Origin: Escherichia phage tootiki
Length of the DNA: 64,000 nucleotides
Sequence record: MN850647.1
Direction: 5' to 3' (one strand)
The stretch's first letter is position 1; each line of letters opens with the position of its first letter. The notes under the pieces are model-generated. The model was not told the DNA's origin. It saw nothing but the letters and a program-made list of their open reading frames with translations, and made no database searches. Of this stretch, positions 16,851-49,586 are shown one piece after another. The position numbers were made by a program, and so were the translations under genes.

Positions 16851-16945
16851 GTGAAAGAGGTCTTAAGTTGTGCCGCTAACTCAACTCCGTGGAATTTGTT
16901 ACGGTCTTCAGTTGACACCAGCGGTCTTTCACTTGACCTCTGAAT

Positions 16946-17022: not shown

Positions 17023-17029
17023 ATTAATT

Positions 17030-17104
17030 TGGAGCATCCAGAGGGAATCGAACCCTCAACCTCAGTTTGGAAGACTGTAATTTTCCCGTTTAAACTATGG
17101 ATGC
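17030..17104 (-). tRNA. tRNA-Gly (anticodon TCC)
   Basis: acceptor GCATCCA/TGGATGC, anticodon loop CTTCCAA, T-arm GAGGG-TTCGATT-CCCTC, discriminator T. Confidence 0.65.
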
Positions 17105-17110
17105 ACTAAT

Positions 17111-17186
17111 TGGTGGAGAAGCAGGGAATTGAACCCTGTACTTAAGTTTGCAAAACTTATGTTTTAACCATGTAAACTACATCCCC
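17111..17186 (-). tRNA. tRNA-Ala (anticodon TGC)
   Basis: D-stem GTTT/AAAC, anticodon stem TAAGT/ACTTA loop TTTGCAA, T-arm CAGGG-TTCAATT-CCCTG, discriminator A. Confidence 0.7.
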
Positions 17187-17192
17187 AATATC

Positions 17193-17268
17193 TGGTACAG
17201 GTGGAGGGAATTGAACCCATCGTCTTACTGATTAAGAGTCAGCCGCATAACCATTTTGCTACACCTGC
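17193..17268 (-). tRNA. tRNA-Lys (anticodon CTT)
   Basis: acceptor GCAGGTG/CACCTGT, anticodon loop CTCTTAA; T-stem ATGGG/CCCTC imperfect, same as tRNA-Lys(TTT). Confidence 0.55.
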
Positions 17269-17275
17269 ATTAATT

Positions 17276-17353
17276 TGGTAGGAGACAAGGGATTCGAACC
17301 CTCAAACATCTCGTTCTAAGCGAGATAGGTTTACCAATTACCGTCAATCTCCC
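17276..17353 (-). tRNA. tRNA with Leu-type anticodon TAG, class-I length
   Basis: anticodon stem ATCTCG/CGAGAT perfect, loop CTTAGAA, T-arm GAGGG-TTCGAAT-CCCTT, discriminator A; no long variable arm. Confidence 0.5.
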
Positions 17354-17432
17354 ATTAAATCTTTTTAGAGAACTTCTAAGAACCTAAGCAACAAGGTTCC
17401 ACAACAAGCTGTAATAACCTTAGAAGCCCTCT

Positions 17433-17452
17433 AAAAAGACCTAAAAAGGTCT
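17433..17452 (-). terminator. intrinsic terminator-like hairpin inside tRNA array
   Basis: minus strand AGACC-TTTTTA-GGTCT followed by TTTT. Confidence 0.4.
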
Positions 17453-17611
17453 TTGCATAGTCTTGTTTAATCCGGTGACTATAACCTTTGGAGAGCTTGA
17501 TATTATCTCTTCTCCGTGACACCTACTAGGTGCTTTACTGTGCATGTACGACAATACACTAGGGATACCAAAGCAACATCCGAATGAAGCTTGGCTTTAA
17601 ATCTTATTAGG

Positions 17612-17699
17612 CGGTAAGTAAAGGAGTCGAACCCTCACCGTATCTCTACAGTGGCAACTGTTTTCAAGACAGTTTGGCTACCATTAGCCGCTACCTACC
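17612..17699 (-). tRNA. tRNA-Ser (anticodon TGA), class II
   Basis: acceptor GGTAGGT/ACTTACC, anticodon stem ACTGT/ACAGT loop CTTGAAA, 20 nt variable arm, discriminator G. Confidence 0.7.
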
Positions 17700-17717
17700 C
17701 CTAATAAGACTTTGGCA

Positions 17718-17795
17718 TGGGACGGAGGAGTTGAACCACTTTGAAACGGTTTTGGAGGCCGTTGCTCATGCCTTAGAGTCTTAACATCGTCCCAC
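17718..17795 (-). tRNA. tRNA-like; possible Trp (anticodon CCA) with enlarged D-loop
   Basis: acceptor GTGGGAC/GTCCCAT plus G73 and encoded CCA, T-loop TTCAACT; core does not fold canonically. Confidence 0.35.
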
Positions 17796-17932
17796 ACTAT
17801 AATTCGAAGCTTACCGTATTTTCACAACACTGTAAAGCCCCTTCTCAGATTATTTACATGTTCTGGAAAACATGAGATACAGACCACCTCCTTACAGGAA
17901 GACCCGCTTAGGTCGTCTAAGTAATCTGCTAA

Positions 17933-18280
17933 CTAATACTTTGCATGTCTTACCCTATGGCAATTTGAACATAGCAAAACACATTTGTCAAGTTCATCTT
18001 TTAGTTCTTGAGAGAACTTAAGGCTTTTCCTATGACCAATGTTAAAATCTTTATCTGAAGGATTCAAATGATGGAAGTCATACACTGCTGGATGATATTT
18101 CTTACCACAATCATGACAAACCCCACCTTTGTACTCAATAGCTGAGAGTTTAAGTGCTCTTTGTCTTTCTATGGTTTGCTCATTAACACACTTTTTACAG
18201 TATGAATGAGTTCTCCTACCATCTTTCATGTAGAAATCATTTTCATCCTTGCTAAGTTTGCACCTAATACAAGTTTTCAT
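17933..18280 (-). CDS. HNH endonuclease
   Basis: Cys pairs CIRCK and CKKC, HH-LNPSD-N motif, CSNCH; start moved to MKTCIRC because track start overlaps a tRNA. Confidence 0.7.
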   Translation of the reverse strand: MKTCIRCKLSKDENDFYMKDGRRTHSYCKKCVNEQTIERQRALKLSAIEYKGGVCHDCGKKYHPAVYDFHHLNPSDKDFNIGHRKSLKFSQELKDELDKCVLLCSNCHRVRHAKY

Positions 18281-18294
18281 GATTTCTCCAAAAT

Positions 18295-18376
18295 TGGTCG
18301 AGGCGGCAGGACTCGAACCCGCATACTCCACTTACTCGGTTAACGTCTGTTTAGAAGACAGATGAGATACGCCCCG
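18295..18376 (-). tRNA. tRNA-like; possible Arg (anticodon TCT) with atypical geometry
   Basis: acceptor CGGGGCG/CGCCTCG, T-arm GCGGG-TTCGAGT-CCTGC, CCA encoded; perfect hairpin TCTGT-CTTCTAA-ACAGA but no room for a D-arm. Confidence 0.35.
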
Positions 18377-18624
18377 TAATTATCTTTAAAGACTCTCTTA
18401 GAAAGCCCTTAAAGATGCCCACCTTATTAATCATACCGTGGGCTAGTACGCCAAATTCTTTGATGAGGGATTGGAAGACCTCACTGGTGTTTAGCCTATC
18501 AAGCTACTGCCAGAAAAACATTGTCGTTTGCATTTATTTTAAATTTGCAAAATAGACGCTACGCAACGAAAACTAAGGTTACTATAAAGTAGTCACATCT
18601 CAGTGTCAACAACTTTATTGAAAG

Positions 18625-18699
18625 TGGTTGTAGGTGAGGGTATCGAACCCTCTTCTAACGGTTATCAGCCGTTTGCATTACCATTTATGCTAACCCACA
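18625..18699 (-). tRNA. tRNA-Ile (anticodon GAT)
   Basis: D-stem GCAT/ATGC, anticodon stem AACGG/CCGTT loop CTGATAA, T-arm GAGGG-TTCGATA-CCCTC, discriminator A. Confidence 0.7.
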
Positions 18700-18701
18700 A
18701 T

Positions 18702-18778
18702 TGGAGGTTCAGGTGGGATTCAAACCCACATTCATAGGGCTTATGAAACCCTTGCATTACCTTATCTGCGACTGAACC
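18702..18778 (-). tRNA. tRNA-Met (anticodon CAT)
   Basis: acceptor GGTTCAG/CTGAACC, anticodon stem AAGGG/GCCCT loop TTCATAA, T-arm GTGGG-TTTGAAT-CCCAC. Confidence 0.65.
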
Positions 18779-18783
18779 ATTTT

Positions 18784-18859
18784 TGGTAGAAGTGGAGGGA
18801 TTCGAACCCATCGCCTGTCAGATTAAAAGTCTGCCGCATCACCATTCTGCTACACTTCC
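18784..18859 (-). tRNA. tRNA-Lys (anticodon TTT)
   Basis: acceptor GGAAGTG/CACTTCT, anticodon loop CTTTTAA, discriminator A; T-stem ATGGG/CCCTC imperfect. Confidence 0.55.
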
Positions 18860-19010
18860 ATTAAATCATCTTTGCAGTAACCTACGCAGACCTTGCTAAA
18901 GGGTCTGTAGAGTCATTTCATATTAAGCTAATCTAGAATCATACTAAGGAAATTCATCGGCACTCATGGGACGACATAATTAGCCACATAAGCTACTGCA
19001 AAGATAATTA

Positions 19011-19141
19011 CCAGACCGTTGTTTATCATCTTAAGTGCTACCATTACACCAACTCGACCTCTGCCGAGTGAAGGAATCGAACCTTCGCCTTTTCTTTACC
19101 GAGAAATAGATTGTTTAAGTTTTGCTGTAAACGGTCTTCTG
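19011..19141 (-). ncRNA. structured spacer module a: terminal inverted repeat enclosing a tRNA-like T-arm and D-arm-like segment
   Basis: minus strand CAGAAGACCG...CGGTCTGG ends pair; internal GAAGG-TTCGATT-CCTTC and AGTTGGTGTAATGGTAGCAC; no anticodon arm. Confidence 0.4.
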
Positions 19142-19154
19142 TAAATTTGTTGAG

Positions 19155-19230
19155 CCAGACCAAGTTTTAAATTTTTCAAAATTGAATTGGCTTGAAAATA
19201 TCATACATTCTTGCTGTATTTGGTCTTCTG
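19155..19230 (-). repeat. spacer module b (CCAGACCA...TGGTCTTCTG inverted-repeat unit)
   Basis: same terminal inverted repeat as module a. Confidence 0.4.
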
Positions 19231-19291
19231 CTCCTTTAAAGAATACTCGTAAGAACTCTTTAAGGGAGGGGCTAAATAGCCCTCTCAAAAT

Positions 19292-19368
19292 TGGCGGCTA
19301 CGATGAGACTTGAACTCAAATCATCTCCCGTGACAGGGGAGTATTTTCTCCAGTTAAACTACATAGCC
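19292..19368 (-). tRNA. tRNA-Asp (anticodon GTC)
   Basis: anticodon stem CTCCC/GGGAG loop CTGTCAC, acceptor GGCTATG/CGTAGCC, discriminator G. Confidence 0.7.
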
Positions 19369-19373
19369 TTTAT

Positions 19374-19461
19374 TGGTGTGCCGTGTAGGAGTCGAACCTA
19401 CCGAGTCTCAATGACAAGGGATTTACAGTCCCCACCGCTACCATCTACGGGATAACGACAC
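19374..19461 (-). tRNA. tRNA-Tyr (anticodon GTA), class II
   Basis: T-arm GTAGG-TTCGACT-CCTAC, anticodon loop CTGTAAA, about 15 nt variable arm, discriminator A. Confidence 0.7.
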
Positions 19462-19469
19462 ATTTAATT

Positions 19470-19546
19470 TGGCGGTTAGTCAGGGATTCGAACCCTGTGC
19501 CATTCGCTTAACAGGCGACCGCACATACCTTATGTGCTTCCTAACC
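19470..19546 (-). tRNA. tRNA-Asn (anticodon GTT)
   Basis: D-stem GCAC/GTGC, anticodon loop CTGTTAA, T-arm CAGGG-TTCGAAT-CCCTG, discriminator G. Confidence 0.65.
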
Positions 19547-19557
19547 TTAATACATTG

Positions 19558-19618
19558 CCAGACCGTGTTTTTTCTTTTATCCGCAAAAAAGTATTTTGTT
19601 GCTGAATACGGTCTTCTG
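19558..19618 (-). repeat. spacer module c (CCAGACCG...CGGTCTTCTG inverted-repeat unit)
   Basis: same terminal inverted repeat; internal GCAA/TTGC hairpin. Confidence 0.4.
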
Positions 19619-19624
19619 CAAAAT

Positions 19625-19701
19625 TGGAGGCGGGTGCAGGAGTCGAACCTGCCGATACCATGCTAATGAGACATGTGAGACGCCCTTTCTCTATACCCGC
19701 A
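19625..19701 (-). tRNA. tRNA-Met (anticodon CAT), second copy with 1-72 mismatch
   Basis: T-arm GCAGG-TTCGACT-CCTGC, D-stem GAGA/TCTC, anticodon stem CATGT/GCATG loop CTCATTA; T1-C72 unpaired. Confidence 0.55.
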
Positions 19702-19712
19702 ATTCTCAATGA

Positions 19713-19784
19713 CCAGACCAAATATCTTCTTTGTCCGATTTCGTGTCAGATGAGTAGATTAAGTTTGCTGTAATTGGTCTTCTG
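19713..19784 (-). repeat. spacer module d (CCAGACCA...TGGTCTTCTG inverted-repeat unit)
   Basis: same terminal inverted repeat as modules a-c. Confidence 0.4.
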
Positions 19785-19791
19785 TCAAAAC

Positions 19792-19869
19792 TGGCGTTCC
19801 AGAAGGGATTTGAACCCTCAGATATCCACTTTGAAAGAGTGGTGACTTTACCATTTTGTCTACTGGAAC
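19792..19869 (-). tRNA. tRNA-Glu (anticodon TTC)
   Basis: acceptor GTTCCAG/CTGGAAC, anticodon stem CCACT/AGTGG loop CTTTCAA, discriminator G. Confidence 0.7.
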
Positions 19870-19876
19870 ATTAATT

Positions 19877-19953
19877 TGGTCTCTGTTGGAGGACTTGAAC
19901 CTCCGGCCTTACCGCCCCAAACGGAATGCTCTACCAAGCTGAGCTAAACAGAG
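19877..19953 (-). tRNA. tRNA-Pro (anticodon TGG)
   Basis: acceptor CTCTGTT/AACAGAG, D-stem GCTC/GAGC, anticodon loop TTTGGGG, T-arm GGAGG-TTCAAGT-CCTCC. Confidence 0.65.
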
Positions 19954-20118: not shown

Positions 20119-21534
20119 TTACCAGATGTAACGGTCAATCATTACTGCTTTGAGCATTACGCTGATTGGGTCAAACTTCTCACCACCAAGCAGAGCTTTT
20201 AAAGTGGCTGGAGAGAACCCTGATACCATTGCTACACCATTATCCTTAACAGACACTTCGCAAGTACCATTACGGTTTGCTAAGTACCAGAATACTAGTT
20301 GTGGCATTTCGTATCCAGCTTTTTTGTACTTACTCTGAATTGCTTCAAAGTTTGTACGACCATTTGCACCATCAACCTGATTGAACTCCATATCAGAGAA
20401 GATGATAAGCTTACTTGGCATATCTTTCTGAGTCAAGTTGTTTCTATTACCTACCTCAAGAATACGGTCAAAAGCTGCTTGTAAGTTAGTTGAACCATAT
20501 TCAACATGACGCATTACCTGACGATGACGGTTTCGTAAATCACCACTCAGTTCAATGAAATGAGGGTTTGTTGAATAGACCATTAACTCATCTTTAAAGC
20601 AACCTGTATTGCGTTCTGCTATATACAAGGCAAGTGATACACCAATATCAAGGGCAGTGATTGAGCCAAGATTCACCCAAGACATTGAGCTTGAAACATC
20701 AGTCATACACAGGATGTTTTCACCTTCTGCCATCCAGTTTGGTAGTGCTTTCCACTGCTCATTAGCAACATCTGCATTACCATACTTAATAGATTTAATC
20801 ACATCGTATGGGTAAACAGCACCAGCGTTAATCTTAGCCTCACCCTTTGATAGTGATTCGATGTAAGCTTTGTAACGTTCCCCATCTTTACGGTTAAAGA
20901 GCTTTTGGTAACGTGCAGCAGCAAGTGAGGGAATCTTGCTGTAGTCAATCTTACCAAACTCATTAGCAGAGATTTTTTGCTCAACCGTATCAGACAGTGC
21001 AGATAACAGTGTGCGATACTCCTTCTCGCTTAAGTTTGCAAATTTACAGAAACGTTTTACAAACTGTTTGTGGCGTGGTTTTACTCGTGGCAACCACTTA
21101 GCTGCTAAACCTGCTGTTGCAGGGTCTAGTAATACTGCTTCTAAATGTTTGAAGGCATCTGTCTCAAAACGAGTATCTACAAAGATTTTGAAGTCATCAA
21201 AACGACCCAGTTCTGCAATCTTATCCATAATGCGAAGAACCTGTGTAGGTTCTAAAACCTTATCTTCAATCGCTTGAAGTAAAACAGTTCGGAAAGCTTT
21301 ACGCTCACCCATACCTTCTCGTACATCTCGCATATGCAGTAAAATACGAACTGCAACATCAACATCCTCACGCAAAGCTTTGTAGAACAGGTCTGGTAAG
21401 ATTTCTACATTGCTACGGCTTGAGCCAGCGGATTTGTAGAAGTCTACCAGAGCAGACATTGATGAAGTATGGTTTACAGCACCATTTTCAGTTCGACCTG
21501 CATGAAGGTGCGCATGTTTAAATAACTCGCTCAT
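20119..21534 (-). CDS. vWA/MIDAS-motif protein with helical N-terminal domain (DUF2828-like; Ro60-like architecture)
   Basis: 471 aa; MIDAS-like DVSSSM around residue 275; N-terminal TENGA...S..LVDFY...GSSRS pattern. Confidence 0.55.
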   Translation of the reverse strand: MSELFKHAHLHAGRTENGAVNHTSSMSALVDFYKSAGSSRSNVEILPDLFYKALREDVDVAVRILLHMRDVREGMGERKAFRTVLLQAIEDKVLEPTQVLRIMDKIAELGRFDDFKIFVDTRFETDAFKHLEAVLLDPATAGLAAKWLPRVKPRHKQFVKRFCKFANLSEKEYRTLLSALSDTVEQKISANEFGKIDYSKIPSLAAARYQKLFNRKDGERYKAYIESLSKGEAKINAGAVYPYDVIKSIKYGNADVANEQWKALPNWMAEGENILCMTDVSSSMSWVNLGSITALDIGVSLALYIAERNTGCFKDELMVYSTNPHFIELSGDLRNRHRQVMRHVEYGSTNLQAAFDRILEVGNRNNLTQKDMPSKLIIFSDMEFNQVDGANGRTNFEAIQSKYKKAGYEMPQLVFWYLANRNGTCEVSVKDNGVAMVSGFSPATLKALLGGEKFDPISVMLKAVMIDRYIW

Positions 21535-33583: not shown

Positions 33584-33988
33584 TTAGAGTTCTGCATAAA
33601 TTGCATCACAGATACCACGAAAATCATGATTTGTCAAATTACGTTGTAACCAAGTGGCGAAAAAGTCAGCGATTGCAAAGTTAGCGTCATACTCGACAGA
33701 TAGCCACACTTTAACAGCAAACCGAAACATTTTCAAATCAAGCTCTTTATTCATTACCTTAGATTTGCCTAACATGTCGGACATTTCATATTGTGCACCG
33801 TCTAGCGTGATACCTGCTGCAACGTCAGCCAATGAGTTTTTTACGTTTTCAACGTCTAAGATAACGCTTTGAATCTTCCCAATAATGTTGTGCAATGTTT
33901 CGTCCGGTGCTGATGACGTAATAACATTAATCCGGTTAACGGTCAAACGTGCTTTTAAGATTGATAACTCGCGATTATTAATAGCCAT
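33584..33988 (-). CDS. hypothetical protein
   Basis: track start is a TTG inside the conserved leader; ATG start (MAINN) follows GGAGA. Confidence 0.5.
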   Translation of the reverse strand: MAINNRELSILKARLTVNRINVITSSAPDETLHNIIGKIQSVILDVENVKNSLADVAAGITLDGAQYEMSDMLGKSKVMNKELDLKMFRFAVKVWLSVEYDANFAIADFFATWLQRNLTNHDFRGICDAIYAEL

Positions 33989-34003
33989 TTTTAAGTTCTC
34001 CAA

Positions 34004-34078
34004 TTTAGGATTTAGTGGTAAAGCTCTTTATCTGGGGCTTACTTTATCGAACTATAAGCCCCTTGTAAAGTACTTTAT
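34004..34078. repeat. type B cassette copy 2
   Basis: near-identical to 33201-33275. Confidence 0.7.
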
Positions 34079-34347
34079 ACTAAATGCAGCTTTTTACCTT
34101 TTACTATGATGTAACTCGATGCGCTATTGCTTTGCACATCCTGATAAATTCTGCGCAAACGGCCTTCGTAGTATACTTTCCAACTGGTTGGAATCTTTTT
34201 CCCGTATCCTGTAGCAGTTTTTTGTAGTCCTGCAAGTTGCCAATCTAAGATATGTTGTTCGGCTTGTAAATCCTCGAAGTGCATTACACCGTTCACATAG
34301 TGACGAAGGGTTATGTTTAAGGTGCGACCGTTGTTAGTAGTATACAT
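34075..34347 (-). CDS. hypothetical protein
   Basis: 90 aa. Confidence 0.45.
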   Translation of the reverse strand: MYTTNNGRTLNITLRHYVNGVMHFEDLQAEQHILDWQLAGLQKTATGYGKKIPTSWKVYYEGRLRRIYQDVQSNSASSYIIVKGKKLHLV

Positions 34348-35747: not shown

Positions 35748-36041
35748 TTATTTGTTAATTTTCAGCTTTGCATAACTTCTCATTGTACGAATGGTGGATG
35801 TTAATGCTACGCGTCTAATGTATGCCTTTTTCGTGTATACATTTGTCTTCCCGATAGTGTTTACACATGTAAAAAGGTTTATCGGTGAATTTTTTAACTT
35901 CAACTGTTTATCAGCCTTCACGCCCCACCTTACAGCAGATTGTTTTCCGTTGTCAACCACTTTCCCGCATAACTTTTTAGCCATAACGCGAGCGTCATCA
36001 CGAGTTTTTGCAGCAATTACAACGTTTTTGATAATAGCCAT
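35748..36041 (-). CDS. hypothetical protein
   Basis: start moved from leader TTG to ATG (MAIIK). Confidence 0.45.
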   Translation of the reverse strand: MAIIKNVVIAAKTRDDARVMAKKLCGKVVDNGKQSAVRWGVKADKQLKLKNSPINLFTCVNTIGKTNVYTKKAYIRRVALTSTIRTMRSYAKLKINK

Positions 36042-36059
36042 TTTTAAGTTCTCCAATTT

Positions 36060-36134
36060 AGGATTTAGTGGTAAAGCTCTTTATCTGGGGCTTACTTTAT
36101 CGAACTATAAGCCCCTTGTAAAGTACTTTATTTA
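36060..36134. repeat. type B cassette copy 3
   Basis: near-identical to 33201-33275. Confidence 0.7.
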
Positions 36135-36334
36135 TCGTAGTAGTAAATTGCTGTCTGTCTTGTAAACTTCTTAGTATTTCTTGTCAGATAGCAATTAGAA
36201 TTAATAGCCGTTTCTACATAGTTGCAATAGTCAGCTTCTGATATTCTAGACCATACGCCACAGATTTGCATGTAAAAACGTTTTACCTTTGTGTGAATGT
36301 TAGTTGTAACCATCAATTCGCGACTGTACAGCAT
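36128..36334 (-). CDS. hypothetical Cys-containing small protein
   Basis: 68 aa; conserved leader upstream. Confidence 0.45.
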   Translation of the reverse strand: MLYSRELMVTTNIHTKVKRFYMQICGVWSRISEADYCNYVETAINSNCYLTRNTKKFTRQTAIYYYDK

Positions 36335-36584: not shown

Positions 36585-36780
36585 CCCACCTACCTGCACA
36601 ATTCTAAAATGATTTTTCTTGCCCGACCTGAGCGGGGTCTGCACGTTTTGAAAATGAAAAAGCTCTTTGGAGATTACCTGCACAGTTTAAAAATGAATTT
36701 TCTCTTTGGAGTTCAAAATTCTCTCTACAGATTTCTCTACAGAACTCTACCTGCACAAATCTGAAATGAAAAAGCCCTCC
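36585..36780. repeat. direct repeat array (ACCTGCACA box with AAAATGA(A/T)TTTTC, 3-4 copies)
   Basis: copies at 36591, 36675, 36748 with degenerate copy at 36638; repeated TCTTTGGAG. Confidence 0.6.
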
Positions 36781-36842
36781 TTACCTGAAAAATTTACCAG
36801 ATAAGAAAGGCTTAGGCTATTGTGAATATCCTACAGAGTTTC

Positions 36843-37628
36843 TTAGTTCTTTGCGTCTAAGAAGGTAACTTCTGGTGAAGAGAAAACTGTCTCGATATCC
36901 TCATCAGTTCTTGCATAGATATAAGTATCTGCATCACTGCCAAATGTTACTGCAATCCTGTGATTGCTCTTCGACAGGTGGGTAACTAGAGCGTTACTCA
37001 GAGACATCTTTTCAACCGGAGGGTTACTTTGATGTATCTTACCTTTTCTTCGTCTGAAGAGGGTAACTGCGTTATCTGTGAACACTGCTACACCTGCAAA
37101 GTATTCTGGTTCACAGTAGTTCTTCCAACCTGAGCGTAACTTGTGGTACATCTCTCCTTCGTAGACATAAAGATACACATCTACACTCTTCATCACCTGA
37201 TTAATGATAACTGTGACGGCTTGAGGGTCTAGCCCACCGATACCTGCACCAATCATAGGTAAACCAACCTTCTTCAACTGGTTGACTTCACAGTATCTGT
37301 TAAGCTGCTTCAAAGATGACTCTAAAGCACTGTATCGGGCATCTTTACCAGTCTTAAGCTGAGTGTAAAGGTTAGCTATACGGCCTTGTTCTAAACGTGC
37401 TACAGAGAAATTACCCAGTAAATTTTCACAGGGTTTGTGACCTATACCACCTGCATAGAGGTAAACTTCTGTATCGGTCTCATATGCTTTTGGGTAAAGT
37501 TTAGAAATCTTGTCAGCGATACCTACACCCATTAAATTCATACAGTTGCAACCGTGACCAATAATATCAAACTTACCTTTATCAAATGCTGAGAAGATAT
37601 CCCCATTGATGATTTTTACAATACCCAT
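36843..37628 (-). CDS. macro-domain-like protein (ADP-ribose binding or hydrolase candidate)
   Basis: 261 aa; NGDIF, DIIGHGCNCMNLMGVGIA and LPMIGAGIGG resemble macro-domain GDIT, NAAN..GGGV and ISTG.YG motifs. Confidence 0.45.
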   Translation of the reverse strand: MGIVKIINGDIFSAFDKGKFDIIGHGCNCMNLMGVGIADKISKLYPKAYETDTEVYLYAGGIGHKPCENLLGNFSVARLEQGRIANLYTQLKTGKDARYSALESSLKQLNRYCEVNQLKKVGLPMIGAGIGGLDPQAVTVIINQVMKSVDVYLYVYEGEMYHKLRSGWKNYCEPEYFAGVAVFTDNAVTLFRRRKGKIHQSNPPVEKMSLSNALVTHLSKSNHRIAVTFGSDADTYIYARTDEDIETVFSSPEVTFLDAKN

Positions 37629-37829
37629 TTAGCATCTCTCCCAAGATTCTTTATCTTCTGAAGGTTTTACACGTTGTCCTTCGTGGTCTACCCAGATACA
37701 TCCACAACCTTCACAGATTACTGGCATTGCATAGCCAGCTTTAAAGTCATCTTCAGTGATAAGACCTTTTAAGTCACCTGTATCACGTCCGAACATTTCG
37801 ATAGAACAGTCTTTGCAGAAGTCAGCCAT
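37629..37829 (-). CDS. Cys-rich small protein (zinc-ribbon candidate)
   Basis: CKDC and CEGCGC pairs; start moved to MADFC with GAGG upstream. Confidence 0.4.
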   Translation of the reverse strand: MADFCKDCSIEMFGRDTGDLKGLITEDDFKAGYAMPVICEGCGCIWVDHEGQRVKPSEDKESWERC

Positions 37830-39148: not shown

Positions 39149-39170
39149 AAAAAGGCTCCCGAAGGAGCCT
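39149..39170 (-). terminator. intrinsic terminator (GGCTCC-TTCG-GGAGCC family)
   Basis: minus strand AGGCTCCTTCGGGAGCC followed by TTTTT. Confidence 0.6.
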
Positions 39171-39175: not shown

Positions 39176-39988
39176 TTATTCTTGACTGTAATAGTTGACA
39201 AGTGAAATCGCTTGATTCATCAACAACTTATCAGCCTGTGCTCCGCGACCAGCTTGTAATGCCAGTTGGTATACCTCTGTAACATATTTGTTAGACATAC
39301 CTTCACAGTAGTCATTATAGTCTTCCCAAAAGGAAAATGCAGCATCACCATATAGGCGTAGTGTAATTAACATTGCTGCACGAATCCCAGAAGAATATTT
39401 CCGTTTTGCGTTTACTACACCTTTAAGCTGTACTTCAAGAGAATCAATTTGTTCCAGCTCATTTTTAAAGTCATTAAGATATTTAACTGTTTCAGTGTTA
39501 GAGACCTGTTGTACACCGTAGTATGCAGCAACATATTTAATAGCAGTTGCCCAAGATGCTTTCATCAGTTCTGACTCTGGGTTGAAAGAAATCATCTTCA
39601 TATTTCCGTAATAAACTTCTGAAGGTTTTTCTCTTGCTAACTCAGAGTCAAAATGAGTGTACAAATCTGTGACATCCAATATGGAGTTCACATGGTATAT
39701 AACTGCAATCAAGTTTTCTGGTCGTGTCAGGTTACCAACTTTCCATGCCTCTCGACGTGAGTGCCCATCAATGATGAACAGTGAACTGCCGAACTTAGCT
39801 ACATGGACTACTGTTTGGTCTGGTGATACGTCACCATTAAGGTGTTTACTTTTCAGACGCTTAAGTGTATTTCGTTGACGAGGGTTTTCTTTGTAACGTT
39901 TTTCATTAAGAAAATCCTCGACACTGATAATCTTAGTGTGAATTTTAACAACCTTGCCATTCAGTGCTACATTGATGCTGTTTGCCAT
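39176..39988 (-). CDS. ParB-like nuclease domain protein
   Basis: 270 aa; FIIDGHSRREAW resembles ParB/Srx DGxxR box. Confidence 0.45.
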   Translation of the reverse strand: MANSINVALNGKVVKIHTKIISVEDFLNEKRYKENPRQRNTLKRLKSKHLNGDVSPDQTVVHVAKFGSSLFIIDGHSRREAWKVGNLTRPENLIAVIYHVNSILDVTDLYTHFDSELAREKPSEVYYGNMKMISFNPESELMKASWATAIKYVAAYYGVQQVSNTETVKYLNDFKNELEQIDSLEVQLKGVVNAKRKYSSGIRAAMLITLRLYGDAAFSFWEDYNDYCEGMSNKYVTEVYQLALQAGRGAQADKLLMNQAISLVNYYSQE

Positions 39989-39999
39989 AACTTGATACC

Positions 40000-40884
40000 T
40001 TAGTTGTGAATAATTACTTCGTTAATATCTTTGCTTCTCTGTGCATGTATTGTGTATGAATGACTAACCTCTGTCAAGTTAAAATTTTCAGGAATTAGGT
40101 TTACCCATCCATCCCACTGAGAGTTTGACATCAAAACTTTAGAGCCTAACTCCCCCCAAGAAATCATATCTTCGCATAATTTTACAGACATCTCAATGTC
40201 AAACTTTGCACCATATTTCTGGTTGGTGTTGATATACGGGGGGTCACAGTAAATAACTGTGCCTTCTCCATGTTTTATGTCAACCCTGTCATAAGGTTCA
40301 CTGCTAAGTATTACCCTCTCATCGGTGATAAAACTGTAGAACTCAGACAGTGACTTCTTAGTTTTTGTGAAGAAAATCTCTTCTTCCAGCAAATACCCGC
40401 AAGGTGTTGCATAGTGACCTTTCATCTCTTTAGTAGTCTGCCATACACCACCAAAACTTAGTTTTTGAAGGAAAAACTGTCTGGCATAGTATCTGTAGTC
40501 ATATGCTCCCTCTTCACCAAGCAAAAGAAGTTCCTCTCTTACACTGTAATACATTTTATAGCGTAGACGGTTATGACGCTGACCTTTCACGGCATACTCT
40601 TCCTGCATAGGTAAGGCTAAGTACCTTTTTGACAAGTACTCAAATTCTTCCATGAAGTTTTCATAGTCATCTCTGAAAGTTGTGTAAAGACCTATAATAT
40701 GTTTATTTATCTCATTAATAAACACTTTTGCCTCTGGATATCTGTTATAAGCCCAGATAGCTACTGAACCACCACCTGAAAACAGGTCATAGAAGTTTTT
40801 ACAGTTGTCTGGAAAGACACCTAAACGCTCATATTCTTTCAGTATTCTTGTTTTACCACCAAGATACTTAAACATTGGTTTCAT
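40000..40884 (-). CDS. dam: DNA N6-adenine methyltransferase (Dam-like)
   Basis: FKYLGGK, LFSGGGSV (AdoMet motif I) and DPPY (motif IV). Confidence 0.75.
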   Translation of the reverse strand: MKPMFKYLGGKTRILKEYERLGVFPDNCKNFYDLFSGGGSVAIWAYNRYPEAKVFINEINKHIIGLYTTFRDDYENFMEEFEYLSKRYLALPMQEEYAVKGQRHNRLRYKMYYSVREELLLLGEEGAYDYRYYARQFFLQKLSFGGVWQTTKEMKGHYATPCGYLLEEEIFFTKTKKSLSEFYSFITDERVILSSEPYDRVDIKHGEGTVIYCDPPYINTNQKYGAKFDIEMSVKLCEDMISWGELGSKVLMSNSQWDGWVNLIPENFNLTEVSHSYTIHAQRSKDINEVIIHN

Positions 40885-46862: not shown

Positions 46863-48644
46863 TTAAAGCTGCTTGTCAATATTATTTCGAATATCACCAA
46901 GAGTTGTGTAACCAAACTGCTCAGAGTCACTAAAGACTAAACGTAAAGCACAAGCTGGGTGGTCAAGTACATCTGCAAAACTCTGGAATCCGTAGCCATC
47001 TACAGCTTTCAACTTATCACCATCCCACATAGGCGCTACACCACCAAAGGCAGATTTCTTAACACCACTATCTGTTTTAGGGTCTTTTGCAAGCATAATC
47101 TCTTTGCCACCAATGCTTGCAAGAGTTGCTTTGACAGCAAATGCAAAGGTGTCACGAGTCATGTACTGGTAAGTGTAAGAGCCTACACCAAACACCACGT
47201 TAGAGCTTGCAAACCCCATTTCATACAGACGCTTCAGGATTTCGTTTGCACGTTCCAGCGTGATAGAGTCACCATAGATAAGTCCGATATGCTCATCCAG
47301 TACCTTAAACCCTTTAGAGTTAATAGTTCCCCCAAAAATGTTGTACAGTGTCTTAATAGCTCCATCAATCTCAGCTACAGGACGTGTTACAACGTTTGCA
47401 GAACCAACCATATAAGCATTTTTCAACATCACTGTATCAGCAACTTCAAAGTCTTCTCTGTCAACAACCATTTCGTAGCCTTCTGACAGTAGCCATCCAG
47501 CAATACCATAGTTGATATTTTCAAGCTTCATGTTCAGAACAGCATTCAACATTGTGTCACTGGCTTCCAGCTTGCTTAGGTGCTCGTAATAAGCCTTTTT
47601 AGCACACTCTAAGTGGATTGCTTTATAACCTGTGACAATATGTACAGGGTCTCCAGAGTCAGGACGAATTACCAGTTTGCCATCACGTTCCATAATTTCT
47701 TTACGAAGTGCTGGTAAAATTTCTGACACAGTTCTCCAGAAGTTATAAGTGTCTGAAACAACACTTGCAATACCAGTTGGGTAAGTTTCTGTTAAGAAAC
47801 GACGGAAGGTTTGTAACTCACCTTTAAAGCGTCTTTCTTCTTCAATCAACTCATTACCACCTTCCCAAGCAATGTTTGCACACATTACAGAGTGCTCAGT
47901 GGCTGGTACAGAGCTACCAATATCAGAGATTGGGTAGGACTGTCCATAGATTCGTTTAGCCGTATACACAGCAGGGAAGCTATCAGTTCCTTTAAAGCTG
48001 GTTAAGTGGCCTACAGCGTTAAATGCGTCATCAGTAAAGCCGGACATACCACGCATAGCAAAGTCATGGCACTGATAAGGCAAATGCAAGTCGTTGTCAC
48101 AAGTAAGGTCAGTCCACTTCTTACAGATACGTTTGTAGTGCAATGCAATAGTTGCAATGGTACAAGCCTTCCAAATCTCAGCAGAGAAAGCATCTTCCAG
48201 ATACCCCGCTACCCAATGGAAGCCTGAAACAGTGTTCTGGAAGACAATCATTGGGACGCGCATAGGGACAACTGTACCTTCTTCTACAGCGTATACTTCA
48301 ACTGGTAGATAACCTAAGTCGTGAAGTGCTTCCCAGTGCTCTCGACCGATAGCATCTTTACCCAGAACACCATTCATGACTTCTAAGATTTCATCAATGG
48401 CTTCTTTTTTATCACGTTCAAAGAAAGTGGCGTTCCAGTGGTCTATCAAGTAATCTTTAACGAAACGTTGAATACCAAAAGCCACTACACCGTCAATTGC
48501 CAAAGGGCTGTTAAACCATTTATCACTACGTGGTGTCAGGTTCAACATAAGATATTGCGTAGCATCTGGATACTGATATATATGTGATGCCTTGTAAGCA
48601 TCTGCATTAAGACCTGCTGGTACTGCGTAAAGTGATTTAGTCAT
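46863..48644 (-). CDS. nadV: nicotinamide phosphoribosyltransferase (NadV/NAMPT-like)
   Basis: 593 aa; N-terminal NADAYKASHIYQYP matches NAMPT DSYKVTHYKQYP signature. Confidence 0.65.
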   Translation of the reverse strand: MTKSLYAVPAGLNADAYKASHIYQYPDATQYLMLNLTPRSDKWFNSPLAIDGVVAFGIQRFVKDYLIDHWNATFFERDKKEAIDEILEVMNGVLGKDAIGREHWEALHDLGYLPVEVYAVEEGTVVPMRVPMIVFQNTVSGFHWVAGYLEDAFSAEIWKACTIATIALHYKRICKKWTDLTCDNDLHLPYQCHDFAMRGMSGFTDDAFNAVGHLTSFKGTDSFPAVYTAKRIYGQSYPISDIGSSVPATEHSVMCANIAWEGGNELIEEERRFKGELQTFRRFLTETYPTGIASVVSDTYNFWRTVSEILPALRKEIMERDGKLVIRPDSGDPVHIVTGYKAIHLECAKKAYYEHLSKLEASDTMLNAVLNMKLENINYGIAGWLLSEGYEMVVDREDFEVADTVMLKNAYMVGSANVVTRPVAEIDGAIKTLYNIFGGTINSKGFKVLDEHIGLIYGDSITLERANEILKRLYEMGFASSNVVFGVGSYTYQYMTRDTFAFAVKATLASIGGKEIMLAKDPKTDSGVKKSAFGGVAPMWDGDKLKAVDGYGFQSFADVLDHPACALRLVFSDSEQFGYTTLGDIRNNIDKQL

Positions 48645-48689
48645 CTTTTAATCTCTCTCAAAGTGGGGCTTTCAAGCCCCTATAAAGTT

Positions 48690-49586
48690 TCAATCAATGG
48701 TTGCTACAGTAACTTGGGCGTAATGTGTTAAGCCACGGTCTTTAGCTTCACCTAAAGTGTTTGTAGTGTAGATATGGTCAATACCGTTGTCAAGTAAGTT
48801 TTCAACACCTTTAGAGAAAATACCATGAGTTACATAGAGTTCCACACGTTTTGCACCTGCTTCACGTAGGTGTTTAGCTGCCTCTACGAAGGTTCGACCA
48901 CCATCACAGATATCATCAAGAATCATGACAGTTTTATCGGTCAAATCAACATCGTCAAGGATTCGCATACCAGTGATTTCTCCAGTCTTAAGATTGCGCA
49001 CCTTAGACATTGTGATATACGGTTTATCCACCTCTTTAGCGGTATCTTCAGTCTTCTTAGCTGCACCTGCATCTGGGGCTACCAAGAAATCAATGCGTGG
49101 GTCACTTGCAAAGTGTACTGCCACATCTTTTTGCTTCATGCTTTGAAAGCACTTAAATAAGTTTTCTGCAACATTACTGTGAGGGTCAAGAGCACATACT
49201 GCATCAAAACCCATTACATTAACTAGGTTGGCAAAGACTTTCAGTGCTGCTGCATCACCTTTGAACATGTGGCGGTCATATCGAGCATTTGGTAAGAACC
49301 CGAAAACAACGGTTTTCATCGCTGATTTCTGGGGAACAAGACTGTCAACGGCATCCTTAGCCAAAGCTAATGCAAACAGTGTATCTTTGTCATATCCCTG
49401 TACAGTAATTATAACATTATCAATCTTACCAGCATTACGCTCAGTAAACTTAACAAAATCTTCAGAGAAGTTTCCACCAATTTCTCCAGATGGGAATTGA
49501 ATGATATTAAATTTTTCTGTGTGGAAGAATTTCTCTTGAGCGGTGACGACGGCTTCAATAACAGTTTTCATAGTTTTCTCTCTCAA
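48690..49586 (-). CDS. prs: ribose-phosphate pyrophosphokinase (PRPP synthetase)
   Basis: 298 aa; PRPP-binding loop MILDDICDGGRTF. Confidence 0.7.
   Translation of the reverse strand: MREKTMKTVIEAVVTAQEKFFHTEKFNIIQFPSGEIGGNFSEDFVKFTERNAGKIDNVIITVQGYDKDTLFALALAKDAVDSLVPQKSAMKTVVFGFLPNARYDRHMFKGDAAALKVFANLVNVMGFDAVCALDPHSNVAENLFKCFQSMKQKDVAVHFASDPRIDFLVAPDAGAAKKTEDTAKEVDKPYITMSKVRNLKTGEITGMRILDDVDLTDKTVMILDDICDGGRTFVEAAKHLREAGAKRVELYVTHGIFSKGVENLLDNGIDHIYTTNTLGEAKDRGLTHYAQVTVATID

What the first reader, a model, noticed from the sequence alone, without database searches (positions are those of the whole stretch)
36843..37628. Phage macro-domain-like protein
The 261 aa protein has NGDIF, DIIGHGCNCMNLMGVGIA and LPMIGAGIGG segments that resemble the GDIT, NAAN..GGGV and ISTG.YG motifs of macro domains, which bind or hydrolyse ADP-ribose derivatives. 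In a phage carrying NAD-salvage genes this could reverse ADP-ribosylation-based defence or process ADP-ribose-derived signals. The C-terminal half is unassigned.
Basis: inference. Interest (0 to 1): 0.55.

Follow-up and report, generated by a model that had tools for sequence, protein, structure and literature searches.

The report
Felix O1-type phage macrodomain counter-defence enzyme
This gene in a Felix O1-like phage encodes a genuine ADP-ribose-processing macro domain, closely related to a phage T4 protein recently shown to defeat a bacterial DNA-ADP-ribosylating defence. It is fused to a 100-residue domain found nowhere else, so it is a known kind of counter-defence enzyme with one unexplained add-on.

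Summary
The 261-aa ORF is real, but it lies on the minus strand of a Felixounavirus window. Residues 1-156 are a bona fide macro domain: Pfam Macro scores 30.9 bits against a cut-off of 22, the family profile matches SCO6735, Poa1p, TARG1 and DarG at E about 1e-17, and the AF2 model gives TM 0.80-0.83 to TARG1 and DarG.

It is 35% identical over the whole length of T4 Tk.4 (AdfM), which T4 needs to resist DarTG2, and it groups with Tk.4 in a 100%-bootstrap clade. The catalytic Lys of DarG and TARG1 is replaced by an invariant Gln (Q90), with H25 and N28 conserved. This is the same constellation as SCO6735, a proven thymidine-ADP-ribose DNA hydrolase.

The same broad family also contains Adpp, the ADPR-1''-phosphate phosphatase of extended NARP1 operons. 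This phage carries NARP1, but 9 kb away. So two activities compete: DNA de-ADP-ribosylation (favoured) and ADPR-1''-P dephosphorylation.

Residues about 168-261 form a beta-rich domain under purifying selection. It occurs only in Felix O1-like phages and has no sequence or fold relatives.

The gene is already deposited as "putative phosphatase" or "macro domain protein". Only the fusion is new.

The parts
36843..37628 (-). Complete CDS, 261 aa plus TAA stop. It is the orthologue of Bas63 bas63_0095 and Felix O1 ORF29.
   Evidence: ORF list and translation. 99-64% identical full-length orthologues occur in about 250 Ounavirinae genomes. PHROG 335 at E = 1e-111.
37161..37628 (-). Macro domain, aa 1-156. 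It is Gln-type and TARG1/DarG/Poa1p-like, of the T4 Tk.4 subfamily.
   Evidence: Pfam Macro 30.9 bits. PDB profile hits at E about 1e-17. Foldseek TM 0.80-0.83. 35% identity to T4 Tk.4, E = 2e-23. 100% bootstrap clade with Tk.4.
37545..37556 (-). Codons H25-G26-C27-N28 (the HGCN of the HGCNC motif). N28 corresponds to DarG N22, PhiKZ N23 and SCO6735 N27. H25 corresponds to SCO6735 H24 and Poa1p H23.
   Evidence: Alignments. Invariant in 21 family members. N27S in SCO6735 and N23A in PhiKZ gp104 reduce or abolish activity.
37359..37361 (-). Codon Q90 (in LYTQ). It occupies the position of the catalytic Lys of DarG (K80), PhiKZ gp104 (K78) and TARG1 (K84), and equals SCO6735 Q85.
   Evidence: HMMER and MAFFT alignments. 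Invariant in the family. SCO6735 Q85A and Q85E are inactive on thymidine-ADPr DNA.
37242..37259 (-). Codons P124-M-I-G-A-G129, the ADP-ribose diphosphate-binding loop 2. G129 corresponds to SCO6735 G128.
   Evidence: Invariant P124, G127, A128 and G129. Alignment to solved macro domains.
37128..37160 (-). Linker helix, aa 157-167.
   Evidence: AF2 secondary structure shows helix H158-167, with lower pLDDT of about 68.
36846..37127 (-). Orphan C-terminal domain, aa 168-261, made of six beta-strands plus a short C-terminal helix. It is lineage-specific to Felixouna-, Moogle- and Suspvirus and a few metagenomic relatives.
   Evidence: Two independent AF2 runs give the same strand pattern. dN/dS is 0.05-0.37. 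It occurs only within this gene, in 242 phage records. No relatives in 1.84e9 representative proteins, the 5.8e9 profile search, Pfam, NCBIfam, PADLOC, PDB or BFVD.
37636..37642 (-). GGGAGAG, a Shine-Dalgarno-like stretch 7 nt before the ATG. It lies inside the 3' end of the upstream gene.
   Evidence: Read directly from the sequence.
37629..37829 (-). Upstream 66-aa CxxC...CxxC protein (PHROG 2210, unknown function). Its TAA stop abuts the macro ATG. This neighbour is conserved in all Ounavirinae examined.
   Evidence: Sequence, PHROG hit, synteny in L001, L004, L005, L006, L007 and L009.
36772..36813 (-). Terminator-like hairpin followed by a T-run, 30 nt after the stop. It is the likely end of the transcription unit that starts after the hairpin at 39153-39170.
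   Evidence: Consensus scan and sequence. This is a pattern match only.
46863..49586 (-). Context, not part of the gene: the NARP1 pair, Namat (46863-48644, Nampt-like) and Adps (48690-49586, PRPS-like). It lies 9.2 kb and about 15 genes from the macro gene.
   Evidence: Pfam hits. Shown experimentally for Bas63 genes 79-80. Same spacing and synteny in L007.

Best explanation
The gene encodes a two-domain counter-defence protein.

The N-terminal domain (aa 1-156) is an enzymatically competent macro domain of the phage T4 Tk.4 (AdfM) subfamily. It binds the ADP-ribose moiety through its two glycine-rich loops. It cleaves the substituent on C1'' of the distal ribose by the lysine-independent, Gln-assisted, water-mediated mechanism described for SCO6735 (H25, N28, Q90).

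Its most likely physiological substrate is phage single-stranded DNA that a host DarT2-type toxin has ADP-ribosylated on thymidine. Removing the adduct lets replication proceed. The ADP-ribose it frees is the kind of substrate the phage's own NARP1 pathway uses to rebuild NAD+ (that link is not shown).

The C-terminal beta-domain (aa about 168-261) has no conserved catalytic-type residues, is neutral to mildly acidic, and evolves about twice as fast as the enzyme core. I infer that it is a binding or targeting module, either for a host protein such as the ADP-ribosyltransferase or for a phage partner.

Shown here: macro fold, subfamily membership, active-site constellation, purifying selection on both domains, and the orphan status of the C-terminal domain.

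Inferred: the substrate, the anti-DarTG2 role, and any role of the C-terminal domain.
For: Fold and family.

The closest characterised relative is T4 Tk.4: 35% identity over its whole length, 80 bits, E = 2e-23. The two group in a clade with 100% bootstrap support that excludes the Gary and Pseudomonas Adpp proteins, Poa1p, SCO6735, TARG1 and DarG.

The tk.4 knock-out makes T4 sensitive to DarTG2, and tk.4 was the only hit in a genome-wide transposon screen (bioRxiv 10.1101/2025.11.20.689424).

H25, N28, Q90 and G129 correspond to SCO6735 H24, N27, Q85 and G128. That enzyme cleaves thymidine-linked ADP-ribose from DarT-modified ssDNA, and Q85A and N27S are inactive (PMC9411070).

The highest-scoring curated models are DarG, at 46-47 bits over the macro part.

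The macro domain is basic, pI 8.6-9.3, in all orthologues, which fits a nucleic-acid substrate.

The gene is not in the NARP1 operon. It lies 9.2 kb and about 15 genes away, in a unit bounded by terminator-like hairpins. It carries HGCNC/YTQ rather than the HQxNC/YGQ signature of 82% of NARP1-operon macros.

C-terminal domain: dN/dS is 0.05-0.37. It is 47-53% identical where the macro domain keeps 75-79%. No D, E, H or C residue is invariant in it.
Against: - No Felix O1-like phage or protein has been tested against DarTG2.
- The evidence for T4 Tk.4 is genetic only. Its biochemistry is assumed by its authors.
- T4 Tk.4 is almost as similar to the proven phosphatase Gary Adpp (77 bits) as to this protein (80 bits).
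- The 100% clade also contains a NARP1-operon macro from Acinetobacter phage phiAbaA1, so subfamily membership does not exclude phosphatase activity.
- The catalytic Lys of DarG and PhiKZ AdfM is absent.
- SCO6735's DNA-positioning K34 is not conserved; the equivalent here is V35.
- The C-terminal domain shows no similarity to the DarT-binding domain of DarG, so its proposed binding role is pure inference.
Confidence: 0.45

Rival explanations
1. Unlinked Adpp. The macro domain is an ADP-ribose-1''-phosphate phosphatase. It converts ADPR-1''-P, made by RES-domain defence proteins (aRES), or possibly arising from ADPR-PP or ADPR cyclic phosphate side-products, into ADPR. The phage's NARP1 (Adps + Namat) can then rebuild NAD+. 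On this reading it is the third enzyme of a 'NARP1-AP' pathway, encoded 9 kb from the other two.
For: - The phage encodes NARP1, and every Felix O1-like phage has both genes: about 260 against about 250 records.
- The protein is homologous to the biochemically proven Adpp of Vibrio phage Gary (27% identity, E = 5e-14) and to a NARP1-operon macro of Pseudomonas phage PN09 (34%, E = 8e-18).
- All fall in one PHROG and share the H-x-x-N-C, Y-x-Q and IG-x-G signature.
- 13 of 129 NARP1-operon macros, from Acinetobacter phages, carry the same HGCNC/YTQ variant and fall in the same 100% clade.
- The preprint's search looked only within two genes of NARP1, so it would have missed this gene.
- aRES occurs in E. 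coli, Klebsiella and Enterobacter, which are relevant hosts.
- One metagenomic family member is fused to a 'cyclic-phosphate processing receiver' domain.
- The basic pI also suits an anionic nucleotide substrate.
Against: - It is not in the NARP1 operon, which is the feature by which Adpp was recognised. It lies in a different predicted transcription unit.
- It falls outside the clades containing the only tested Adpp.
- Its closest characterised relative, T4 Tk.4, has an anti-DarTG2 phenotype in T4. From my own knowledge, not checked here, T4 has no NARP1.
- It lacks the longer aromatic loop after the Gln that is seen in all the Adpp sequences I saw.
- A small-molecule phosphatase has no obvious need for an extra fast-evolving domain.
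Confidence: 0.3
2. Eraser of a different ADP-ribosylation. The macro domain removes ADP-ribose from proteins (Glu/Asp-linked, as TARG1 and SCO6735 can) or from RNA (for example CmdTAC-type mRNA or other RNA ADP-ribosyltransferases). Alternatively it deacylates O-acyl-ADP-ribose. The C-terminal domain would select the target.
For: - Structurally it is as close to TARG1 as to DarG: Foldseek best hit 4j5q, TM 0.81. TARG1 also gives the best single-sequence PDB hit.
- SCO6735, with the same Gln constellation, also de-ADP-ribosylates PARP1 in vitro.
- Macro domains are commonly promiscuous; viral macro domains do several of these reactions, as noted in the aRES preprint.
- One GenBank record labels the orthologue YmdB/O-acetyl-ADP-ribose deacetylase.
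- RNA ADP-ribosylation defences against T-even phages exist (PMC11618068, listed).
Against: - The TARG1 catalytic dyad is missing: K84 is Q90 and D125 is G131.
- No MacroD- or YmdB-type structures appear among the profile hits.
- No homologue in this subfamily has such a phenotype.
- The YmdB label is an unsupported automatic annotation.
Confidence: 0.15
3. Non-catalytic binder. The protein only sequesters an ADP-ribose-derived immune signal or ADP-ribosylated target (a sponge), or it inhibits an ADP-ribosyltransferase purely by binding through the C-terminal domain.
For: - Catalytically dead SCO6735, DarG and TARG1 all inhibit DarT by interaction.
- DarG has a separate toxin-binding domain.
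- The C-terminal domain evolves fast, as interaction surfaces in arms races often do.
Against: - All residues needed for catalysis in the Gln-type mechanism are invariant across the family, which argues for an active enzyme.
- No known cyclic-ADPR sponge has a macro fold, to my knowledge (not tested here).
Confidence: 0.05

Closest known systems
T4 Tk.4 = AdfM (anti-DarT factor Macrodomain), bioRxiv 10.1101/2025.11.20.689424
   Same: - Homologous over the entire 155 aa of Tk.4: 35% identity, E = 2e-23.
- Same HGCNC...LYTQ...IGAGIG signature, with Gln in place of the catalytic Lys.
- Same 100%-supported clade and same PHROG 335.
- Both are early-region genes of lytic myoviruses of enterobacteria, and both have historically been annotated 'phosphatase (A1pp motif)'.
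   Different: - Tk.4 is a single 155-aa domain, while this protein carries an extra about 100-aa orphan domain.
- The genomic neighbourhoods are unrelated: tk-vs region in T4, spanin-rII region here.
- T4 carries no NARP1 (my own knowledge, not checked here), whereas this phage does.
- The anti-DarTG2 phenotype is shown only for T4.
Adpp, the ADPR-1''-phosphate phosphatase of NARP1-AP operons (Vibrio phage Gary gp137), bioRxiv 10.64898/2026.01.28.702374
   Same: - Same broad Gln-type Poa1p-like phage macro family: 27-34% identity, E = 5e-14 to 8e-18.
- Same PHROG.
- Both occur in phages that encode Adps + Namat.
   Different: - Adpp sits between or next to Adps and Namat, whereas this gene is 9.2 kb away.
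- Most Adpp proteins have HQxNC/YGQ and a longer aromatic loop after the Gln.
- Adpp is single-domain.
- It falls in a different clade.
SCO6735 of Streptomyces coelicolor (PDB 5E3B), PMC9411070
   Same: - Best profile hit in the PDB, E = 4e-17.
- Identical active-site constellation: His, Asn, Gln and Gly at equivalent positions.
- It proves that a Gln-type macro domain can hydrolyse thymidine-linked ADP-ribose on ssDNA and neutralise DarT.
   Different: - Only about 24% identical.
- It is a cellular, stand-alone protein.
- It has DNA-positioning Lys34 and Lys89 in a longer mobile loop, which are not conserved here.
- It has no C-terminal domain.
DarG antitoxin of DarTG2 (PDB 5M31, 5M3E, 5M3I) and PhiKZ gp104 'AdfM' (PMC13309987)
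   Same: - Macro fold with TM 0.79-0.80.
- Conserved catalytic Asn (N28 = N22 or N23).
- Like DarG, it has a two-domain layout: a macro domain followed by a second domain.
- DarG is the top NCBIfam and PADLOC model.
   Different: - The catalytic Lys (K80 or K78) is replaced by Gln.
- Sequence similarity is low: 24-35 bits.
- The C-terminal domain is unrelated to DarG's DarT-binding domain.
- There is no adjacent darT.
- The score is 46 bits against the equivalog cut-off of 250.
Yeast Poa1p (PDB 6LFQ-6LFU) and human TARG1/OARD1 (PDB 4J5Q-S)
   Same: - Profile E values of 5e-17 and 9e-17.
- TM 0.75 and 0.81-0.83.
- The H-x-C-N-C motif is nearly identical to Poa1p's HSCNC.
   Different: - Poa1p has Ser at the Q90 position, and its S30 is not conserved here.
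- TARG1's K84/D125 dyad is absent.
- Both are eukaryotic single-domain enzymes with unrelated biology.

Membership tests
Macro domain superfamily (Pfam PF01661) | Profile match above the curated gathering threshold | tested here: met
   30.9 bits against a cut-off of 22, aa 25-141 covering 116 of 118 model positions. All orthologues tested also pass.
Macro domain superfamily (Pfam PF01661) | Three-layer alpha/beta/alpha macro fold | tested here: met
   AF2 pLDDT is 82.7. Foldseek gives TARG1 E = 2.6e-10 with TM 0.81-0.83, DarG TM 0.79-0.80 and Poa1p TM 0.75.
Macro domain superfamily (Pfam PF01661) | Two glycine-rich ADP-ribose-binding loops and the conserved Asn | tested here: met
   N28, M33-G-x-G36-I-A38 and P124-x-I-G127-A-G129 are invariant in 21 family members and align with the loops of solved structures.
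TARG1-type (Lys/Asp dyad) hydrolases | Catalytic Lys84 and Asp125 | tested here: not met
   K84 aligns with Q90 and D125 with G131.
DarG (type II antitoxin, NCBIfam NF048014) | Equivalog score threshold over the full-length model | tested here: not met
   46.4 bits against a cut-off of 250. Only model positions 4-154 of 338 matched. PADLOC DarG scored 47 bits, macro part only.
DarG (type II antitoxin, NCBIfam NF048014) | Catalytic Asn22 and Lys80 in the macro domain | tested here: not met
   The Asn is present (N28), but the Lys is replaced by an invariant Gln (Q90).
DarG (type II antitoxin, NCBIfam NF048014) | C-terminal DarT-binding domain | tested here: not met
DarG (type II antitoxin, NCBIfam NF048014) | Adjacent darT toxin gene | tested here: not met
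   The neighbours are 66-115-aa phage proteins and spanins with no Pfam hit, followed by a terminator.
AdfM, T4 Tk.4 type | Homology to T4 Tk.4 over its full length, and a shared subfamily clade | tested here: met
   35% identity, 80 bits, E = 2e-23, aa 3-157 against 2-152 of 155. The 100% bootstrap clade includes Tk.4.
AdfM, T4 Tk.4 type | HGCNC / LYTQ / IGAGIG active-site signature | tested here: met
   Identical motifs in both proteins.
AdfM, T4 Tk.4 type | Protects the phage against DarTG2 | not testable with these tools
   Needs plaque assays. No published test for any Felix O1-like phage was found.
AdfM, T4 Tk.4 type | Single-domain architecture of about 155 aa | tested here: not met
   The protein is 261 aa, with an additional domain at about 168-261.
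AdfM, PhiKZ gp104 type | DarG-like macro domain with N23 and K78 | tested here: not met
   Only 24 bits of similarity. N is conserved, but K78 is Q90. It is an outgroup in the tree.
Adpp (NARP1-AP phosphatase) | Encoded within or adjacent to the Adps-Namat operon (within two genes) | tested here: not met
   The macro gene starts at 37628 and Namat ends at 46863. That is 9.2 kb and about 15 genes, including rIIA and rIIB. The same layout is seen in L007. No Escherichia or Salmonella phages appear in Table S1.
Adpp (NARP1-AP phosphatase) | The phage encodes NARP1 | tested here: met
   Nampt-like and PRPS-like genes lie at 46863-49586. They correspond to Bas63 genes 79-80.
Adpp (NARP1-AP phosphatase) | Poa1p-like macro domain homologous to Gary gp137 | tested here: inconclusive
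   It is homologous (27% identity, E = 5e-14) but lies outside the Gary and Pseudomonas clades. It carries HGCNC/YTQ, which only 13 of 129 NARP1-operon macros carry.
Adpp (NARP1-AP phosphatase) | ADPR-1''-phosphate phosphatase activity | not testable with these tools
   Needs purified protein and LC-MS.
SCO6735-type Gln-dependent thymidine-ADPr hydrolase | His24, Asn27, Gln85 and Gly128 constellation | tested here: met
   H25, N28, Q90 and G129 sit at the aligned positions.
SCO6735-type Gln-dependent thymidine-ADPr hydrolase | DNA-positioning Lys34 and Lys89 in an extended mobile loop | tested here: not met
   K34 aligns with V35. The loop after Q90 is shorter, although it contains K92 and K95.

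The most novel reading that the evidence does not exclude
The orphan C-terminal domain may be a toxin-binding or target-recruiting module. That would make this protein a convergently assembled, phage-borne analogue of full-length DarG: enzyme plus inhibitor in one chain, built from an unrelated second domain.

Alternatively or additionally, the Tk.4-type macro domain may be bifunctional. It would cleave both thymidine-ADP-ribose on DNA and ADPR-1''-phosphate, so that one protein counters DarTG2 and aRES and feeds the released ADP-ribose into the phage's NARP1 NAD+ reconstitution.

Nothing in my evidence excludes either reading. AdfM (T4) and Adpp (Gary) are about 35% identical members of one family with the same active-site residues.
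Probability: 0.15. Interest if true: 0.7.

Novelty: new variant of a known kind. Interest (0 to 1): 0.4.

Why it matters
Felix O1-like phages are widely used for Salmonella and E. coli typing, biocontrol and therapy, so knowing which host defences they can neutralise helps predict host range.

This gene places them among phages that carry a Tk.4-type macrodomain. One member of that family is known to defeat DarTG2 (T4), and a related member to defeat aRES (Vibrio phage Gary).

The analysis also shows that 'AdfM' currently covers two mechanistically different macro types: Lys-type PhiKZ gp104 and Gln-type T4 Tk.4. It further shows that T4 AdfM and Adpp are close relatives with identical catalytic residues. 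This makes the question of substrate specificity or bifunctionality directly testable.

The conserved, selected but completely orphan C-terminal domain is a defined handle for finding a new interaction in the ADP-ribosylation arms race.

Tried and rejected
1. **AFDB50 fold search** of the C-terminal model: the library was not available. I used BFVD instead, which returned only the protein's own orthologue.
3. **P0023** (1072 aa, E = 8e-4 in the exhaustive search) is a repeat-inflated chance match to a GAEADTYTF repeat.
4. **P0024** looked like a stand-alone C-terminal domain. It is a frameshifted or split copy of the same fused gene on a 1.4-kb contig.
5. **cREC_REC**: the C-terminal domain is not a diverged version of the cREC_REC domain fused to relative P0016 (hhalign probability 0.1%).
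6. **Co-occurrence of the macro gene and NARP1** cannot discriminate AdfM from Adpp, because all Felix O1-like phages have both.
7. **The G26/T89 signature** is not exclusive to non-NARP1 macros, since 13 Acinetobacter phage operon members share it.
8. **The PhageMaP Bas63 essentiality preprint and the NARP1 preprint** say nothing about this gene.
9. **PHROG, NCBIfam and PADLOC labels** ('phosphatase', DarG) do not resolve function. PHROG 335 lumps T4 AdfM, PhiKZ AdfM and Gary Adpp together.
10. **A DNA-binding role for the C-terminal domain** from charge was considered and not supported, because its pI is 4.7-8.3.
Full report
**The observation**

The stated coordinates hold a 261-codon ATG-to-TAA ORF, but on the minus strand. 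The plus-strand reading is full of stops. All three quoted peptide segments are present.

The window is a Felix O1-like myovirus (Ounavirinae, Felixounavirus), 94-96% identical at the DNA level to phages such as DaR-2019a and JohannRWettstein/Bas63. The gene is intact in about 250 related genomes, where it is deposited as 'putative phosphatase', 'macro domain(-containing) protein', 'hypothetical protein' or, once, 'ymdB'. In Felix O1 itself it is ORF29. Its 2003-era note, 'hypothetical 17.5 kD protein in tk-vs intergenic region', already pointed to T4 Tk.4.

The TAA stop of a conserved 66-aa CxxC...CxxC gene abuts the ATG, and a GGGAGAG stretch lies 7 nt upstream. A terminator-like hairpin follows the stop. 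The gene therefore looks like the last gene of a unit that begins with the spanins. This synteny is conserved in Felixounavirus, Suspvirus, Mooglevirus and a more distant metagenomic relative.

**The N-terminal half is a macro domain**

- Pfam Macro passes its gathering threshold: 30.9 against 22 bits.
- A 21-sequence family profile hits solved macro domains at E = 4e-17 (SCO6735), 5e-17 (Poa1p), 9e-17 (TARG1), 1e-16 (Mtb DarG) and 7e-15 (Taq DarG).
- An AlphaFold2 model (mean pLDDT 82.7) superposes on TARG1 (TM 0.81-0.83), Taq DarG (0.80), Mtb DarG (0.79) and Poa1p (0.75).

The domain belongs to the TARG1/DarG/Poa1p-like class, not the MacroD/YmdB class.

**Active site**

Invariant positions in the family are H25, G26, N28, C29, M33, G36, A38, N86, L87, T89, Q90, P124, G127, A128 and G129.

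Alignment with characterised enzymes shows:
- N28 corresponds to DarG N22, PhiKZ gp104 N23, SCO6735 N27 and Poa1p N26.
- Q90 occupies the position of the catalytic lysine of DarG (K80), PhiKZ gp104 (K78) and TARG1 (K84).
- TARG1 D125 aligns with G131.
- H25 corresponds to SCO6735 H24 and Poa1p H23.

This is exactly the constellation of SCO6735. That enzyme was shown to cleave thymidine-linked ADP-ribose from DarT-modified ssDNA by a lysine-independent, water-mediated mechanism. In it, Q85A, Q85E and N27S are inactive (PMC9411070).

**Closest characterised relatives**

In T4-like phages the tblastn hits lie beside the vs gene. In T4 that gene is tk.4, annotated 'phosphatase; contains A1pp phosphatase motif'. 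The window protein is 35% identical to Tk.4 over Tk.4's entire length (E = 2e-23).

A 2025 preprint found tk.4 to be the single T4 gene that becomes essential on DarTG2-expressing hosts. It confirmed this with a clean knock-out and named the gene adfM.

Independently, PhiKZ gp104 was also named AdfM and was shown biochemically to remove DarT2 modifications (PMC13309987). But gp104 is a Lys-type, DarG-like macro domain that scores only 24 bits against this protein.

A third relevant relative is Adpp. This macro protein is encoded inside some NARP1 operons (Vibrio phage Gary gp137). It dephosphorylates ADPR-1''-phosphate made by the aRES defence so that NARP1 can rebuild NAD+ (bioRxiv 10.64898/2026.01.28.702374).

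I recovered Adpp sequences from that paper's Table S1. They have the same H-x-x-N-C, Y-x-Q and IG-x-G signature.

Pairwise scores:

| Pair | Bits |
|---|---|
| window - Tk.4 | 80 |
| window - PN09 | 63 |
| window - Gary Adpp | 52 |
| Tk.4 - Gary Adpp | 77 |
| window - Mtb DarG | 35 |
| window - PhiKZ gp104 | 24 |

All four phage proteins fall into PHROG 335 'phosphatase'.

**Which subfamily?**

A bootstrapped neighbour-joining tree (150 columns, 200 replicates) places the window protein, its orthologues, eleven short metagenomic or phage homologues, T4 Tk.4 and one NARP1-operon macro (Acinetobacter phage phiAbaA1) in a clade with 100% support. That clade excludes the Gary/phi3 and Pseudomonas Adpp groups, Poa1p, SCO6735, TARG1, DarG and PhiKZ gp104. 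Resolution inside the clade is poor.

Motif counts in Table S1 agree. Of 129 NARP1-operon macros, 106 carry HQxNC and about 105 carry YGQ. Only 13, from Acinetobacter phages, carry the HGCNC/YTQ form seen here and in T4.

The window does carry NARP1: Namat at 46863-48644 and Adps at 48690-49586. These equal Bas63 genes 79-80. However, the macro gene lies 9.2 kb and about 15 genes away, beyond rIIA and rIIB, and the same layout is seen in a diverged relative. All Felix O1-like phages have both genes, so co-occurrence is uninformative.

**The C-terminal half**

Residues about 168-261 are predicted, in two independent AF2 runs, as six beta-strands plus a short helix (pLDDT about 70-89 in the full-length model, 71.8 alone).

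The domain is under purifying selection: dN/dS is 0.05-0.37, against 0.02-0.20 for the macro part. It diverges about twice as fast, keeping 47-53% identity where the macro part keeps 75-79%.

It is neutral to mildly acidic (pI 4.7-8.3), whereas the macro domain is basic (pI 8.6-9.3). Its invariant residues (M, P, G, V, V, S, N, Y) include no typical catalytic side chains.

It has no detectable relatives:
- Exhaustive phmmer against 1.84 billion representatives found only its own family plus one repeat artefact.
- A profile search of 5.8 billion clusters added only a frameshifted copy of the same gene.
- Pfam, NCBIfam and PADLOC gave nothing.
- A PDB profile search gave nothing.
- BFVD returned only the SUSP2 orthologue.

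Among deposited phages it occurs in 242 records, all Ounavirinae, and always in this gene. It is unrelated to DarG's DarT-binding domain and to the cREC_REC domain fused to one metagenomic family member.

**Interpretation**

What is shown:
- It is a real, conserved gene.
- It has a macro fold with an intact Gln-type active site.
- It belongs to the T4 Tk.4 subfamily.
- It carries a selected but orphan second domain.

What is inferred is the substrate.

I favour DNA de-ADP-ribosylation against DarT2-type toxins (0.45), for four reasons:
- The nearest characterised relative has that phenotype.
- The active site matches a proven thymidine-ADPr hydrolase.
- The gene is not in the NARP1 operon.
- The macro domain is basic.

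The main rival is an unlinked Adpp feeding NARP1 (0.30). Three things keep it alive: the phage's NARP1, the close kinship of Tk.4 and Adpp, and the presence of an operon-linked member in the same clade.

The two are not mutually exclusive. Both reactions remove a substituent from C1'' of the distal ribose, and macro domains are often promiscuous. Other erasers (0.15) or a purely binding role (0.05) are less likely.

The C-terminal domain is most plausibly a binding or targeting module, but this is inference only.

**Novelty and score**

The macro assignment is already in GenBank and PHROGs, and the family's counter-defence roles were published in 2025-2026. So the core finding is a new member of a known kind.

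Three things are not described elsewhere, as far as the searched literature shows:
- The Ounavirinae-specific fusion to an orphan domain.
- The observation that T4-type AdfM is a Gln-type enzyme distinct from PhiKZ-type AdfM.
- The observation that T4 AdfM and Adpp are close relatives.

I rate it a new variant of a known kind, with interest 0.4.

Noticed in passing
window 39176-40884 (minus strand): A two-gene cassette: a 270-aa protein of unknown function (PHROG 2615, no Pfam hit, with an 'IIDGHSRR' ParB-like motif by eye) and a 294-aa D12-class Dam-like N6-adenine DNA methyltransferase. It is absent from Bas63 and pEP20. The full cassette is present in only 13 of 230 related phage records, so it is a variable insertion right after the terminator-like hairpin at 39153-39170.
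   Followed up: partly
window 46863-49586 (minus strand): The adjacent Nampt-like (593 aa) and PRPS-like (298 aa) genes are the NARP1 NAD+ reconstitution pathway (Namat + Adps). It was demonstrated experimentally for genes 79-80 of the near-identical phage Bas63.
   Followed up: yes
window 37629-37829 (minus strand): A 66-aa protein with two CxxC pairs (a Zn-ribbon-like protein, PHROG 2210, unknown function). Its stop codon abuts the macro gene's ATG. This pairing is conserved in every Ounavirinae relative examined, including the distant contig L007 and the frameshifted contig L009. A functional link is possible but untested.
   Followed up: partly
window 33584-34109 and 35748-36165: Two minus-strand ORFs start with the same 'MENLKMAI' peptide. 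The overlapping plus-strand ORFs share an identical 33-residue stretch (IAIFKFSNLGFSGKALYLGLTLSNYKPLVKYFI). This indicates a repeated DNA module, probably a promoter or leader, in the early gene region.
   Followed up: no
window 14760-19953 (minus strand): A cluster of 24 tRNA genes interspersed with small ORFs. Immediately upstream, at 20119-21534, is a 471-aa DUF2828/DUF7788 protein. The PhageMaP preprint describes a Ro60-like Bas63 gene (g130) directly upstream of a feature it links to tRNA-like Y RNAs (the passage I read was cut off there), which counters the 'ppl' defence. This may be its orthologue.
   Followed up: no
locus L009 291-1069 (metagenome contig ERR2213706_41282): In a P0009-like relative the macro part and the C-terminal part are called as two overlapping ORFs (291-779 and 725-1069). 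This is a frameshift within the fused gene. It could be an assembly error or a natural split of the two domains.
   Followed up: partly
protein P0016 (339 aa, metagenomic): A member of the same Tk.4-type macro clade is fused to a Pfam cREC_REC 'cyclic-phosphate processing receiver' domain instead of the Felix O1-type C-terminal domain. This suggests the subfamily is combined with different accessory modules in different lineages.
   Followed up: partly
literature: The name AdfM has been given independently to two different macro proteins: PhiKZ gp104 (Lys-type, DarG-like) and T4 Tk.4 (Gln-type, Poa1p/SCO6735-like). They share only about 21 bits of similarity, so there is a nomenclature collision.
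   Followed up: yes
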